Shown: positions 6,449 to 51,655 of the stretch, in pieces
Position numbering within the stretch: position 1 is the stretch's first letter
Layout: every line of letters begins with the position of its first letter
Source: the human T2T-CHM13v2.0 reference genome, Homo sapiens
DNA length: 64,000 nt
NCBI RefSeq assembly: GCF_009914755.1
Contig: NC_060931.1
Reading direction: 5' to 3' (one strand)
Translations under genes and position numbers: made by a program
The notes under the pieces: model-generated
What the model was told of the DNA's origin: nothing
Database searches by the model: none
The model's input: only the letters and a program-made list of their open reading frames with translations

Positions 6449-7562
6449 TATGGTGTCTTATGCTATTAGCTAATGACAGTGTAAAGCCCTCATAACCAGC
6501 AATGTTACTTTAAAACATATTAATTTCATCTGTATCTCACTCTTTTTCATTGCTGTTCTCTGAAAATTTTATATATAAATAGCAAACAATAAATTATTTG
6601 TGGATTTTCATAAACATAAATGAATTCCCCTTTGAAAATTGATATGGTATGAGATTTGTTTAGGAAAAAAACTGAAGCCCAGTATTGTAAATGAAATTAC
6701 ATTATAATAAAACACAATTTACAATAGAAAAAATATTAATGGCAAGTTATCAAGGGTTTTTATGTTCTGTTTAAAAAATTACTGAAACTGATATAAAATG
6801 AATATTAGCCAAAGCACATGCCAGTCATTTTAACAGTTATTTTGCCAAAGGACCAAAGATTATTATTACGAATATCTCATCCCTAAAAAGTATTTCAATT
6901 AAACCATGAAAACTCTAGAGTACTGAGTTTCGTATTCATATTGCACAAACTTCTATATTTAAGCACAGTATTTTTTTCAAGTGTGCATAGGGAAATCAAA
7001 AGTGTCAAGTCAATTCATTCTTTGAGGAAATAAATTGCATGTGGACAAAGCAGAACTATTAAAGGGCTCTGAACAAATATTCCATACCAGAGTCTATTAA
7101 AATAATTGAATTACCAATGGACTAAAAAAATTGGTAAGTCACATATAAGAAATTGCTTCAGAGAAAGTAAACAAAGAGTAGAAATAAACAGGTACTTCCT
7201 TGAGAAATCTTTCTTGTCCTCTCCCAAGAGTGACCAAATGGTATATGCCAGTTGCACAAGCATAATAACAAACTGTGTCCCCTTCCATTCATTCGCAGAC
7301 TGCCCTGGCTTGGATAATAAATTATATAATCACTGTATCCTTCATCATCTTCGGGTTTCGCCTCATCCTTCTATTTCAGTCTCCAGCAAAACTTACTTCA
7401 ATGAGATGTACATCCTACCATATCCCATAAATAATGCTCATCAGGGTCACCAGTGACCTCTTCTGTAAAACTCAATGACTAATTCTCAGTTCTCTTCTTG
7501 CCTAATACATCTCGGCAGCATAACAGGGTAGATCACCCCTTGAATCTTTCTTCTTGAATGAT

Positions 7563-7620
7563 CAGGGATGGGGGCGGTGGGGGAGAAAGGAGGGGGACAG
7601 GAAATAAAGTAGGGAGAGAG
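7563..7620. repeat. Inverted repeat arm A (reverse complement of 8594-8651)
   Basis: Hand alignment 50/58 identical, no gaps. Confidence 0.9.
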
Positions 7621-7877
7621 TTGTGTGGTTGCACTTTGTGAACCATCTCCAGTTTTATTAGATTGTTCTTGAGCTATCATGATCAAAACACGATTTAACC
7701 ATTGGAAGGCAAGACAACTGGCTTTTGCTGCTGTTGCTATTGTCCTTTCTAGTACCCTTCCTGGAACATTTTGTATCATATTGATTTAAGTGTAGTACTC
7801 AGGGCTTCAGGACATAGGGCCATCGAGTTTTAGGAGGGAGTGATTTCATTCTGCGGAGAATCACTTTGGGCAAGCAA
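7621..7877. repeat. Inverted repeat arm B (reverse complement of 9132-9392)
   Basis: Hand alignment: ~27 mismatches plus one 4-nt gap over 261 columns; perfect 56-bp (7758-7813) and 41-bp (7657-7697) blocks. Confidence 0.97.
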
Positions 7878-8593
7878 TCCCCCCATCCCTTGACTTGAGG
7901 AAAACACTCTCTATTGGTTCTCCTTCTGTGTGACTGACCCACTCCTTCTCAGCCTTGTTTGCTGCTTATTCCTTATTGCATAGAAAGTACTGAATAAAAC
8001 TTGTTGAATAAATAGTGAATATCTCTAGCTTCCATATGTAAGAGTGCCCAGTGCCCCAGATGCAGATCTTTGGACCTTTTCTCAATCTATACCCACTCCC
8101 TAAGTAATCCCCTTTAGTCTCATGGCTTCAAATGCCGTCTATAATGGTGACTTCCATATGCAAGACACCAACCCGGGGCTTTCCCCCTGAACTCCAGAAC
8201 TCTATGTCTAACTGCCTATTCAACAATTCCACTTGGAGAACTAACAGACATCTCAAACTCAACAAGTCCAAATCAGATTCCTGAATCTTCTCTCCATGCA
8301 AACCTGCTCCATCCACAGTGCTGCCCATCCAAGTACCATATCTACCACCGACGCTCTATTCCCCGTGAACAGTTTTCATCTCTAGACTGTATAAAACAGC
8401 CCTCTAATTGGCCTCTCTGCTTCTACACTTGCCTCTCTTATACTCTATTCTCCACACACCAGCCAGATGGATCTTGTTAAAATATAGTCAGAGGAAGTTA
8501 TTTCCTGGTTCAAAAACCTCCACTGGCTTCCTTTCACAGTAAAAGTCAAATTCCTCACAAATCACCTACAAAGCTCTACATAACCTGGCTTCT

Positions 8594-8651
8594 CTCTCTC
8601 CCTACTTTATCTCCTATGTCCCTCCCTCCTCCCCCACAGGCCCCATCCCTG
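8594..8651. repeat. Inverted repeat arm A' (donor, inside L2); G-quadruplex motif on - strand
   Basis: Partner of 7563-7620; - strand reads GGG-AT-GGGG-CCTGT-GGGGG-AGGA-GGG-A-GGG. Confidence 0.88.
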
Positions 8652-9131
8652 CGACAGACACACTGCCCTCCTTGCTGCTCTTAAAACATACAGAGCACAA
8701 TGCCACCTTTTAGACTTACTGTAGATAGCCACATATTCAGTTAATGCCTTACTTTCCGTTTCACACTAATTCCTTGGCTCTCTGCTCAAATGTTAGTTAT
8801 CATAGTACTTCCCTGAGCAATCTATGTAAGATAGAAACACCTTCGACTCCACACTAGCACTCACTCTTAACCTGATTTGTTTTTTATAATAAATTTATCA
8901 CCAGTTTGTTCATTCAATCTTTTTTCTAATGTCTGTCTCCCCACACTAGCACATAAATTCCTGGATCCATTAACTAAAACTGTGCCACATACACAGTAAG
9001 CACTCAATAAGTATCTGCTGAGCGGCACTTTCAGCAATGACTTTATGTCCATTTACAATAAATCAATTCCATATGCTTTCTCTAAAAATCAAGTGACTCG
9101 TCCCCAATTTGAATAGGTACTCTTCCCTTGG

Positions 9132-9392
9132 TTGCTTGCCCAAAAGGATTCTTTGCAGAATGAAATTACTCCCTCCTAAAACTCAGTGGCCCTTTCCAGG
9201 TCCTGAAGCCCTGAGTACTACACTTAAATCAATATGATACAAAATGTTCCAGGAACGGTATTAGAAAGGACAACAGCAACAGCTACAGATGCCAAATGGC
9301 TTCCCTTCAAATCGCTAAATCGTGTTTTGATCATGATAGCTCAAGAACAATCTAATGAAACTGGAGATGGTTCAAAATGTGCAACTATACAA
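9132..9392. repeat. Inverted repeat arm B' (apparently unique-sequence donor)
   Basis: Partner of 7621-7877; perfect blocks 9200-9255 and 9316-9356. Confidence 0.97.
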
Positions 9393-10505
9393 TTTCAAAG
9401 TTTGTAAATATTTTCTTTGAGAATAGATTAAGTATTTTTGAGGTAAACAGATGTTTAGGCTTACTACCTATATAGTGAAAGAAATCCATGTAATATGCCT
9501 TGGGCCCTGCAAACCTGAGCATATATCTAGTTATTGTCATCCAACCTTTCAAGTTGAAAGTGTAAAGAGATTCTGAATGATTTAAATCAGTTTCCATCTA
9601 AGAGCATTACCTCCCATAATGCAACTGTAATGGGTCTGTCCAAGTTTACTAAACCTAATATTATAAAATCTATGCCACTATAAACAAAATGCCCCAATAA
9701 ATTCTCACAAGAATCTATATATGTTAGAAATGCATGAGAAAAAGAACACTTTATATTTTACAACTAGTAAGCTTCTGCTCTGTAGGAAGTGGGGGGAAGT
9801 GCAAGTGAAACCTGACAAAGTTCTGAGTCTTTCTTGACATAAAAGTAGAAGGCTATAGCAAGAAATGTTTTCTTTCTTTACGCTTACAAAGGTTAGCCAT
9901 ATTCTTGTTGCCAATAAACACATTCTCACTATAACCAAATGAATGAAGTTGAGTTCTTTATCTTGGCACACTGACATCTCTGGATTGCTGGCAGAGTTCA
10001 AAGCTGCTCCATCAACTGTCCCTTGCCCTGCAGACATGGGGCACAATAAACTGTGTCTCCTGTCAATCAAGAAAATCAATCACTGCCTAGCAAACTGTAG
10101 ATGTAATGCCATAACCCTAAGGGTTCATCATAAAGTACTAAAAATTATAGTCCATCACATTAGTTTTGACATGTTGACAGCAGGGCCCACAATAGTCTTT
10201 ACACTTGAAAAGCCGGTTCAACACACTTCCTGAAGGCAGACTCTAAGTTTGGAATGCGCTTCTAAATCAAACAGAAAGCCTGACTTTTATCCTTAGGCTA
10301 CTCCTGTAACCTCAACCCATGTCCACCCATATCAAAAAGCACAGAATCTCTTCATGGCAAGCAGTAGAAGAAAGGCCAAGGAGGTTCAACATGGCAGTAA
10401 ATACTCCCTTTGAAAACCCTTTCTACTTAGGTTTGGTTAGGTTTGATGAGAATTATTTTGGGAAGAGGTGGGCTTTAAAGCTTTGTGGGCTTCACATGTA
10501 ATAAC

Positions 10506-10932
10506 TGTATTCATCCATTCGCACACTGATATGAAGAAATACCTGAGACTGGGTAATTTACAAAGGAAAGAGGTTTCATTGACTCGCAGTTCCACATGGC
10601 TGGGGAGGCCTCAGAAAACTTACAATCATGAAGGAAGGCAACTCTTTACAAGGCAGCAGGAGAGAGAATGAGTGCCAGCAGGAGAGAGAATGAGTGCCAG
10701 CAGGAGAGAGAATGAGTGCCAGCAGGGGAGAGAATGAGTGCCAGCAGGAGAAATGCCAGACGCTTATAAAACCATCAGATCTTGTGAGAACTCACTATCA
10801 CAAGAACAGCATGGGGGAAAACACCCCCATGATTCAGTCACCTCCCAGCAGGTCCCTCCCATGGCATGTGGGAATTATGGGATTACAATTCAAGATGAGA
10901 TTTGGGTGGGGACACAAAGCCAAATCATATCA
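10506..10932 (-). mobile_element. THE1C-like MaLR solo LTR
   Basis: TGTATT...AATACCTGAGACTGGGTAATTT...GATGAGATTTGGGTGGGGACACAAAGCCAAATCATATCA. Confidence 0.92.
10654..10750. repeat. 22-bp tandem repeat x~4.4 (CAGCAGGAGAGAGAATGAGTGC) inside the THE1 LTR
   Basis: Near-perfect direct units read directly from the sequence. Confidence 0.95.
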
Positions 10933-13124: not shown

Positions 13125-14087
13125 CATAATATAATATACTATATTATATAGTATATAATATAGTATATTATATTATATAGTATATAATATAGTATATTAT
13201 ATAATATAGTATATAATATAGTATATTATATAATATAGTATATAATATAGTATATTATATTATATAGTATATAATATAGTATATTATATAATATAGTATA
13301 TAATATACTATATTATATAGTATATTATATACTATATTATATAGTATATATTATGTATATTATATATAACATATATAATATATATATTTTATATATATAT
13401 AATGTATAATATATATTTAATATATATTATATATTATATATAATATATATCATATATATATTATATATAATATATATCATATATATATATTATATATATT
13501 ATATATCATATATATATGATATATAATATATATATTATATATATGATATATAATATATATCATATATATATGATATATAATATATATCATATATATATGA
13601 TATATAATATATATATCATATATATAATATATATATTATATATTATATATTATATATATAATATAATATATAATCAATATATATAACATTATATATAATA
13701 TATTATATATTATATAATATATATTAATTATATCATATTATATATTATATTATATATTAATTATATTATATATATTATATATTATATTATATATGATATA
13801 TTATATATCATATATATTATATAGTATATGTAATATATTATATAGTATATGTAATATATTATATAGTATATGTAATATATTATATATTATATATGTAATA
13901 TATAATATATGTAATATATTATATATTATATGTAATATATATTATATATTATATGTAATGTATATTATATATTATATGTAATGTATATTATATATTATAT
14001 GTAATTTATATATTATAATATATAAATATGTGTTATATATTTATTATATAATATATATGTGAATAAGTTATATATATATATATATAT
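13125..14087. repeat. ~960-bp AT-rich (TA)-type compound minisatellite, including five 29-bp units at 13161-13305
   Basis: Almost pure A/T; unit TAGTATATTATATAATATAGTATATAATA. Confidence 0.97.
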
Positions 14088-51033: not shown

Positions 51034-51347
<314 letters not shown>

Positions 51348-51655
51348 ATATACATAACTCTTTTAGCATGAACCCCTCTAAATGCTGGATGGAATAGAAT
51401 AAATAAATACTGCTCTCTAAAAACATAGCTGCCCTCACAAGAGAGGGAAATCCCCAAGTTTGTGTGTAGTTGGAGGCAGGGCTTGCCAAGAGGAAATTTG
51501 AAGCCACAATAACATGCTCATGAGCAGATGCTGCTGAGGCTCAGTAGCAAGAGGGGGAGTGAAGGAAGTCTAGCCAAAGGCTGTGGGCCTTATTGGTTAG
51601 GGTTTTGACACCAATGCGAGGATAGGGGAAAAAATCATGGGACATGCAAGGTAGG

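What the first reader, a model, noticed from the sequence alone, without database searches (positions are those of the whole stretch)
7621..9392. Long non-Alu inverted repeat able to form a ~257-bp intronic dsRNA
Seen: 7621-7877 is the reverse complement of 9132-9392 (~230/261 aligned positions, one 4-nt gap), separated by a 1,254-nt spacer. I do not recognise the arms as any interspersed repeat, so this is not an ordinary Alu-Alu pair. Established: long intramolecular duplexes in pre-mRNA are ADAR1/ADAR2 A-to-I substrates (compare the editing complementary sequences of GRIA2/GRIK2). They can bind other dsRNA-binding proteins or MDA5/PKR and can alter splicing or back-splicing. Inference: inside the inferred - strand intron this could be a dedicated structured RNA element, such as an editing platform, an ADAR-recruiting element or an endo-siRNA source.
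Basis: partly seen in the sequence, partly recalled or inferred. Interest (0 to 1): 0.82.

Follow-up and report, generated by a model that had tools for sequence, protein, structure and literature searches.

The report
Single-copy inverted duplication in TPK1 intron
A real, one-of-a-kind inverted duplication inside a TPK1 intron could fold into a roughly 230-base-pair RNA hairpin, but it looks like a neutral scar of an old copying error rather than a purpose-built RNA element.

Summary
7621-7877 is the reverse complement of 9132-9392: 230 of 261 columns match, with 27 mismatches, one 4-nt gap and a 1,254-nt spacer (BLAST E 3.5e-92).

The arms are not a transposon. A whole-genome search found only these two copies. 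The same tool found 40 dispersed 69-90% copies of an old LINE-like repeat in the spacer.

The left arm abuts a second inverted copy. 7563-7620 is the reverse complement of 8594-8651 (50/58), a piece of that old repeat. So 7563-7879 is a chimeric block built from two non-adjacent nearby templates. It is most likely one templated, inverted insertion, roughly 20-85 Myr old.

On TPK1-sense RNA the arms pair in the global MFE: 233 bp, cofold -383 kcal/mol against -122 for shuffled partners.

Nothing indicates a dedicated function. There is no wobble bias on the transcribed strand and no Rfam hit. Alu-like pairs in the same window give stronger predicted duplexes.

Editing, crosslinking and conservation could not be tested. 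Verdict: a new member of the known class of "non-repetitive" intronic dsRNAs, of low-to-moderate interest.

The parts
7563..7620 (.). A': inverted 58-nt copy of 8594-8651 (50/58 identical), directly abutting the left arm. It is the first templated piece of the chimeric insertion.
7621..7879 (.). Left arm (B'): inverted copy of 9130/9132-9392. It is the second templated piece of the insertion and the 3' arm of the hairpin on the - strand (TPK1-sense) RNA.
7880..9129 (.). Spacer, which forms the loop of the hairpin. 7880-~8040 is unique sequence; the rest is mostly the old dispersed repeat plus about 100 nt of unique sequence.
8040..9047 (+). Ancient dispersed LINE-like repeat. By recall it resembles a LINE-2 3' end with a MIR-like tail; this was not checked against Dfam. 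Homology to copies on other chromosomes is collinear across this span.
   Evidence: 40 matches elsewhere in the genome, 69-90% identity; blastn and nhmmer against 28 fetched copies
8594..8651 (.). A: source of the 58-nt piece. It lies in continuous old-repeat context, so it is the original and 7563-7620 is the copy.
9130..9392 (.). Right arm (B): inferred source of the left arm, continuous with genome-unique flanks. It is the 5' arm of the hairpin on the - strand RNA.

Best explanation
The structure is a locus-specific, non-transposon inverted duplication created by one complex DNA event in the primate lineage. A 317-nt block (7563-7879) was inserted about 0.7-1.8 kb upstream (on +) of its templates. 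The block is stitched from two non-adjacent nearby segments, both copied in inverted orientation: 8594-8651 (inside an old LINE-like repeat) and 9130-9392 (unique sequence). The most likely process is serial template switching during replication or break repair (the FoSTeS/MMBIR or templated-insertion type; these mechanism names are recalled). Since then the copies have drifted about 11% apart. As a by-product, TPK1 pre-mRNA (- strand) carries a hairpin of about 230 bp with a 1.25-kb loop and perfect helices of 56 and 41 bp. That hairpin is expected to be a promiscuous nuclear ADAR substrate, like the Alu inverted pairs in the same intron, and to be discarded with the intron. Shown here: the repeat, its uniqueness, the chimeric junction, the polarity of the 58-nt piece and the predicted fold. 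Inferred: a single event, the polarity of the long arm, the age, editing and the lack of function.
For: (1) Arm identity is 230/261 at E 3.5e-92. (2) The whole-genome search found only the two copies of each arm, and the flanks 6600-8066 and 9026-10200 matched nothing elsewhere. The same tool detected 40 dispersed copies of the spacer repeat down to 69% identity, so it is sensitive enough to see an old repeat family. (3) 7563-7620 matches 8594-8651 at 86%, the only match to spacer positions 717-774 among the 42, most of the other 40 being 69-82% identical (four 85-90%, each under 55 nt). It abuts the arm at 7620|7621, joining rc(8594) to rc(9392), a junction that cannot be ancestral. (4) nhmmer shows collinear old-repeat homology through 8594-8651, for example L007 8077-9047, L026 8400-8990 and L013 8412-8976, so that copy is the original. 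(5) The two pieces have statistically indistinguishable divergence (27/257 vs 8/58, Fisher p 0.49), which fits one event. (6) No poly-A, target-site duplication or splice signals are visible at the junctions (read). (7) The arms pair in the MFE on both strands: 233 and 236 bp, cofold -382.6 and -395.3 kcal/mol, against -122 and -124 with shuffled partners. (8) There is no sign of selection for pairing: G:U accounts for 6/27 mismatches on - RNA and 9/27 on + RNA, and mismatch binning is not significantly clustered (634/5000). (9) Three Alu-like pairs in the same window give -481 to -514 kcal/mol and 268-279 bp, against -383 kcal/mol and 232 bp here.
Against: No outgroup genome could be examined, so the derived state, the polarity of the long arm and the age are inferences. 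No convincing microhomology is seen at the three junctions (0-1 nt, read). The 10-nt identity CCCCATCCCT at 7881-7890 and 8641-8650 sits at two breakpoints but is not significant by shuffling (15/300 in a 200-nt target, 60/300 in the wider region). The longest perfect helix (56 bp) is longer than random placement of the mismatches gives (39/5000). That could mean arm-to-arm gene conversion or constraint rather than pure drift. The transition/transversion count (15/12) is lower than I would expect for neutral human DNA (expectation recalled), though the numbers are small. Whether the hairpin is edited at all was not tested.
Confidence: 0.75

Rival explanations
1. Dedicated structured RNA element: the hairpin is kept by selection as a nuclear dsRNA platform in TPK1 pre-mRNA. 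It would recruit ADAR, regulate splicing or intron fate, or act as an endo-siRNA source.
For: The predicted duplex is strong on the sense strand. Its perfect helices of 56 and 41 bp match or exceed the median for edited dsRNAs (31 bp; PMC11838218 Table 1). The 56-bp run is longer than random mismatch placement gives (39/5000). The arms are non-repetitive, a rare class, of which 4,597 are reported as edited genome-wide (PMC11838218).
Against: There is no wobble bias on the transcribed strand. Arm divergence equals that of the co-inserted non-arm piece. The hairpin is equally stable on the untranscribed strand, as expected for any DNA duplication. No Rfam family matches. No annotated exon is nearby (hub table). 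Stronger Alu-like pairs lie in the same window. Two searches for TPK1 with editing terms found no relevant paper.
Confidence: 0.06
2. Circle-derived insertion: the junction rc(8594)|rc(9392) is the circular permutation expected if 8594-9392 (799 bp) first formed an extrachromosomal DNA circle or a tandem duplication. Part of it (58 + 259 nt across the circle junction) was then re-inserted in inverted orientation.
For: The order A'-B' in the insertion is the reverse of what a simple inverted copy of 8594-9392 would give. It equals a read across a head-to-tail junction of that segment (geometry by inference).
Against: Two successive template switches give the same product without a circle. No microhomology is seen at the would-be circle junction. 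No other trace of a tandem or circular copy exists in the genome.
Confidence: 0.12
3. RNA-mediated origin: the block is a retro-copy of a back-spliced circular RNA or a lariat from the - strand TPK1 pre-mRNA. On that strand the arm lies upstream and the 58-nt piece downstream, so 'downstream end joined to upstream start' is the back-splice order.
For: The inserted block on + has the sense of the - strand transcript, and the junction order fits a back-splice or lariat read-through (geometry). CircRNA-derived pseudogenes have been described (recalled, not looked up).
Against: On the - strand source there is no AG before the arm start (the bases are AA) and no GT right after the 58-nt piece (AG AA follows). 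There is no polypyrimidine tract or branch-site context, no poly-A and no target-site duplication (read). No exon is annotated here (hub table).
Confidence: 0.03
4. The arms are terminal inverted repeats of a DNA transposon, or two independent copies of a transposon that is too old or too rare to recognise.
For: Long inverted termini flanking an internal segment are the layout of some DNA transposons.
Against: Only two copies exist in 3.1 Gb at E<=10. The flanks are unique. No target-site duplication is present: 7611-7620 and 9393-9402 are unrelated. The internal segment is an older LINE-like repeat. The arms are 88-90% alike, far closer than old independent copies would be (the spacer family mostly shows 69-82%).
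Confidence: 0.02

Closest known systems
Non-repetitive predicted intramolecular dsRNAs of the human genome (dsRNAscan catalogue; Andrews & Bass, PMC11838218; passages and Table 1 read)
   Same: Inverted arms lie within 10 kb, more than 70% paired, outside interspersed repeats and in an intron. The paper places 96.4% of predicted dsRNAs in protein-coding loci in introns. Length, pairing percentage, longest helix and free energy fall in the range of its 'edited' class.
   Different: At 261 bp it is longer than that class's medians (144 bp edited, 75 bp unedited). Here the origin of the pair, a chimeric templated insertion, is worked out.
Inverted Alu pairs (IR-Alu), the main ADAR substrates in human introns
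   Same: Same expected behaviour: an intronic duplex of roughly 250-300 bp and 80-90% pairing with a kb-scale loop. Three such pairs sit in the same window.
   Different: The arms are single-copy rather than a retroposon family. The pair arose by one local duplication, not two insertions. Its predicted duplex is somewhat weaker than the local Alu-like pairs.
Templated insertions and inverted duplications from template switching (FoSTeS/MMBIR; short-range template switches in great apes, PMC7954356; templated insertions in cancer genomes, PMC7025897; the two papers seen as search listing and abstract start only; mechanism names recalled)
   Same: Nearby cis templates, inverted orientation, and more than one templated piece joined in a chimeric junction.
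   Different: The block of about 317 nt is larger than the short-range events as I recall them from those studies, and much smaller than the kb-to-Mb disease rearrangements. Microhomology at the junctions is not detectable after about 11% divergence. It is an old event, apparently fixed.
   Same: A pre-mRNA duplex involving intronic sequence that could bind ADAR.
   Different: Those hairpins pair an exon with a short, deeply conserved intronic complement and direct site-specific recoding (recalled). Here both arms are intronic, no exon is nearby (hub table) and the pair is a young duplication.

Membership tests
Interspersed-repeat inverted pair (IR-Alu and similar) | Each arm is a member of a multi-copy dispersed family | tested here: not met
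   2 matches each (self and partner) in the 3.1-Gb assembly at E<=10; the flanks are also unique. Positive control: the spacer repeat gave 40 matches elsewhere in the genome down to 69% identity. Caveat: the tool skips very common words, and no Dfam library was available.
DNA transposon with long terminal inverted repeats / MITE | Target-site duplication directly outside the two arms, and other copies in the genome | tested here: not met
   7611-7620 and 9393-9402 are unrelated (read). There are no other copies.
Templated inverted insertion by template switching (FoSTeS/MMBIR type) | The copy lies near its templates in cis, in inverted orientation | tested here: met
   the templates lie 0.7-1.8 kb from the inserted block, and both pieces are inverted.
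Templated inverted insertion by template switching (FoSTeS/MMBIR type) | A chimeric junction joins segments that are not adjacent in the template | tested here: met
   7620|7621 joins rc(8594) to rc(9392). The templates are 480 nt apart and in permuted order.
Templated inverted insertion by template switching (FoSTeS/MMBIR type) | Microhomology at the breakpoint junctions | tested here: inconclusive
   0-1 nt at the three junctions by eye. The 10-nt CCCCATCCCT shared by 7881-7890 and 8641-8650 is not significant (15/300 and 60/300 shuffles). About 11% divergence may have erased any signal.
Templated inverted insertion by template switching (FoSTeS/MMBIR type) | The insertion is absent from outgroup genomes (derived state) | not testable with these tools
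   No other primate or mammalian genome is held.
Non-repetitive intramolecular dsRNA (dsRNAscan definition, PMC11838218) | At least 25 bp, at least 70% paired, arms within 10 kb, arms not overlapping annotated repeats | tested here: met
   232-236 bp and 88-90% paired with a 1,254-nt loop. The arms are genome-unique. RepeatMasker annotation itself was not available.
Candidate MDA5 substrate (PMC11838218 criterion) | More than 300 bp, more than 96% paired, and present in mature cytoplasmic RNA | tested here: not met
   261 columns at 88.1% identity. The pair is intronic (hub table). The criterion is quoted from the passages.
Exon-ECS site-specific editing hairpin (GRIA2-like) | One arm is an exon carrying a recoding site, and the duplex is conserved across vertebrates | tested here: not met
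   No exon of the selected TPK1 transcript lies in the window (hub table). The other 42 transcripts were not seen. Conservation is not testable here.
L1-mediated retro-copy / circRNA-derived pseudogene | Poly-A tail, target-site duplication, and a junction at canonical splice sites | tested here: not met
   None is visible at 7562/7563, 7620/7621, 7879/7880 or at the source positions 8593/8594 and 9392/9393 (read).
Known structured RNA family (Rfam 15) | A covariance-model match | tested here: not met
   0 matches at E<=1 in 6500-10500 on both strands.

The most novel reading that the evidence does not exclude
The hairpin is not a passive scar. Its two long perfect helices (56 and 41 bp) would be kept intact by selection or by arm-to-arm gene conversion, because the duplex acts in TPK1 pre-mRNA as a primate-specific nuclear dsRNA element, for example an ADAR/dsRBP landing site that affects processing of the large 5' intron. 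If the permuted junction also reflects re-insertion of a 799-bp DNA circle, the locus would be a fixed germline example of circle-derived sequence creating a new structured RNA.
Probability: 0.05. Interest if true: 0.55.

Novelty: new member of a known kind. Interest (0 to 1): 0.22.

Why it matters
As it stands, the value is mainly clean annotation. This is a transposon-free inverted pair whose origin can be read from its junctions: two nearby templates, both inverted, joined in permuted order. Such loci are useful in two ways. They are natural test cases for ADAR editing of a long duplex without the mapping ambiguity of Alu. They are also dated examples of medium-size (about 300 nt) template-switch insertions in primate genome evolution. 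For TPK1 biology there is no indication of an effect.

Tried and rejected
**Rejected readings**
- Transposon pair or TIR element. Rejected by genome-wide uniqueness and the absence of a target-site duplication.
- Inversion with staggered breaks, which duplicates both breakpoints in inverted orientation (model recalled). It would put 8594-8651 directly next to 9132-9392, but 480 nt of continuous old repeat lie between them.
- Simple inverted copy of 8594-9392 followed by an internal deletion. The order of the two pieces is the wrong way round.
- RNA-mediated origin (back-splice or lariat). No splice signals, poly-A or target-site duplication.
- Target-site-like repeat between the end of the left flank and 7880 onward. 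Only a 9/10 match, CACCCCTTGA/CATCCCTTGA, lying 19 nt from the junction (6/300 shuffles in a 30-nt by 30-nt test). Not used.
- The 10-nt breakpoint motif. Not significant.
- An nhmmer alignment of one repeat copy (L023) that ran into the right arm (to 9288). Its low posterior values beyond about 9010 showed it to be over-extension.

**Checks that found nothing**
- Known RNA families: none.
- ORFs: four ORFs of 61-97 aa on the - strand, unremarkable. Base composition is unremarkable.
- Literature: 'TPK1' + 'A-to-I' + 'intron' gave 1 irrelevant paper. 'TPK1' + 'RNA editing' gave 6 irrelevant papers. TPK1 is not mentioned in the main text of PMC11838218 or PMC12695637.

- Earlier findings of this scan.
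- Supplementary tables. Whether this locus is listed in the dsRNAscan tables or in editing-site lists remains open.

Full report
**1. The observation**

- The repeat finder on 7000-10000 reported arms 7621-7813/9200-9392 (193 nt, 90% complementary) and 7816-7877/9132-9193 (62 nt, 89%), with 1,254 nt between the inner ends.
- blastn of the region against the whole 64-kb window joined these into one alignment of 261 columns: 27 mismatches, one gap opening (4 nt), 88.1% identity, E 3.5e-92.
- MAFFT shows homology stopping sharply at 7621/9392 on the outside and at about 7877-7879/9130-9132 on the inside.

**2. Not a transposon**

- Each arm, searched against the window's own 3.1-Gb assembly at E<=10, matched only itself and its partner (2 candidates, 2 scored).
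- Longer queries covering the flanks (6600-8066 and 9026-10200) likewise matched nothing else.
- This is not due to lack of sensitivity. With the 1,254-nt spacer as query, the same tool returned 42 matches: the locus itself, the 58-nt piece described below, and 40 matches on many chromosomes at 69-90% identity, all within spacer positions about 190-683.
- The tool states that it skips very common words and that its counts are lower bounds. No Dfam library was available.
- No target-site duplication flanks the pair, and 7611-7620 and 9393-9402 are unrelated (read).

**3. Anatomy beyond the arms**

A second inverted pair exists: 7563-7620 is the reverse complement of 8594-8651 (58 nt, 50/58). 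It directly abuts the left arm.

The spacer from about 8040 to about 9010-9047 is an ancient dispersed repeat.
- blastn against 28 fetched copies covers 8067-8560.
- nhmmer extends the collinear homology, for example L007 8077-9047, L026 8400-8990, L013 8412-8976 and L014 8367-8880.
- One alignment that ran on to 9288 had only low posterior values beyond about 9010 and is over-extension.
- From memory the sequence looks like the 3' end of LINE-2 with a MIR-like tail. That name is recalled, not tested.

Because 8594-8651 lies inside continuous old-repeat sequence, it is the original and 7563-7620 is the copy. That copy is the only match to spacer positions 717-774 among the 42; its 86% identity exceeds the 69-82% of most dispersed family members, although four short hits (50-66 nt) reach 85-90%.

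The junction 7620|7621 therefore joins rc(8594) to rc(9392). These two template positions are 798 nt apart and appear in permuted order.

**4. Origin**

The simplest history is one event that inserted a 317-nt chimeric block (7563-7879). The block was copied in inverted orientation from two nearby templates. The right arm is inferred to be the original. Otherwise two independent events would have to share a breakpoint to the nucleotide.

- The two pieces are equally diverged from their templates: 27/257 vs 8/58, Fisher p 0.49.
- Pooled divergence is 35/315 (Jukes-Cantor 0.12, 95% range 0.083-0.169). With recalled rates of 1.0-2.2e-9 per site per year, that gives roughly 20-85 Myr.
- I see no poly-A, target-site duplication or splice-site dinucleotides at the junctions. 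This argues against a retro-copy of a back-spliced RNA or lariat, even though the junction order would fit one on the - strand.
- An inversion with staggered breaks, and a simple inverted copy followed by deletion, both predict a different arrangement.
- Serial template switching fits the nearby inverted templates and the chimeric junction. So does re-insertion from a circle or tandem intermediate of 8594-9392. I cannot separate the two.
- Microhomology is not evident. A 10-nt identity at two breakpoints (7881-7890 and 8641-8650) does not exceed shuffled controls convincingly (15/300 locally, 60/300 regionally).

**5. RNA-level consequences**

TPK1 is on the - strand and the window lies inside it, with no exon of the selected transcript in the window (hub table).

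- Folding 7563-9392 (1,830 nt) pairs the arms in the global minimum-free-energy structure on both strands: 233 arm-arm pairs on -, 236 on +.
- Cofolding the arms gives -382.6 (-) and -395.3 (+) kcal/mol, against -122 +/- 4 and -124 +/- 5 with a shuffled partner.
- The longest perfect helices are 56, 41, 17 and 17 bp.
- In the dsRNAscan preprint (PMC11838218; passages and Table 1 read) the medians for edited dsRNAs are 297 bp, 31 contiguous bp, -410 kcal/mol, 84.7% paired and a 2,025-nt loop.
- That paper predicts about 0.5 million non-repetitive dsRNAs, of which 4,597 are edited.
- So this hairpin has the features of an ADAR substrate and belongs to a known but sparse class.
- It misses that paper's criterion for MDA5 candidates (>300 bp and >96% paired).
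- Intronic dsRNAs are described as non-immunogenic because splicing removes them (PMC12695637, passages).

**6. Is it a dedicated element?**

Nothing I could compute says so.
- Of the 27 mismatches, 6 are G:U on the - RNA and 9 on the + RNA, so pairing is not preferentially preserved on the transcribed strand.
- Mismatch binning is not significantly clustered (634/5000).
- No Rfam family matches at E<=1.
- The same window holds at least seven Alu-like 5' heads on both strands (motif recalled) and several inverted pairs. Three of these give stronger predicted duplexes on the - strand than this one: -481 to -514 kcal/mol and 268-279 bp, against -383 kcal/mol and 232 bp.

One hint points the other way. 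The 56-bp perfect run is longer than random placement of the mismatches gives (39/5000). This could reflect gene conversion between the arms, constraint, or chance after several tests.

**7. What could not be done**

- No other primate or mammalian genome, no RepeatMasker/Dfam, and no editing, CLIP, crosslinking or small-RNA data were available.
- Two full-text searches for TPK1 with editing terms gave nothing relevant.
- The template-switch papers were seen only as search listings and abstract starts.

**8. Verdict**

The claim of a dedicated RNA element is not supported. I file it as a new member of a known kind: a non-repetitive intronic inverted duplication of template-switch type. Interest is 0.22.

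Noticed in passing
window 13129-14087: A tract of about 950 bp of degenerate (AT)n / TATATTA repeats (TRF score 748; 71-72% matches). It dominates the self-complementary pairs reported in the window and is a potential cruciform or flexibility site.
   Followed up: partly
window 10654-10751: A small minisatellite: a 22-nt unit CAGCAGGAGAGAGAATGAGTGC repeated 4.5 times at 97% identity.
   Followed up: no
window 26435-26756/32671-33096, 47956-48294/51037-51352, 49405-49736/51037-51352: Alu-like inverted pairs in the same TPK1 intron region. Predicted - strand duplexes are -481 to -514 kcal/mol, stronger than the finding's hairpin. The element at 51037-51352 can pair with at least four partners.
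   Followed up: partly
window 7881-7890 and 8641-8650: An identical 10-mer, CCCCATCCCT, sits just inside the spacer next to the left arm and at the very end of the 58-nt source segment. As a result the inserted block is bounded by a 10-nt inverted repeat. It is not significant by shuffling but might be a remnant of breakpoint microhomology.
   Followed up: partly
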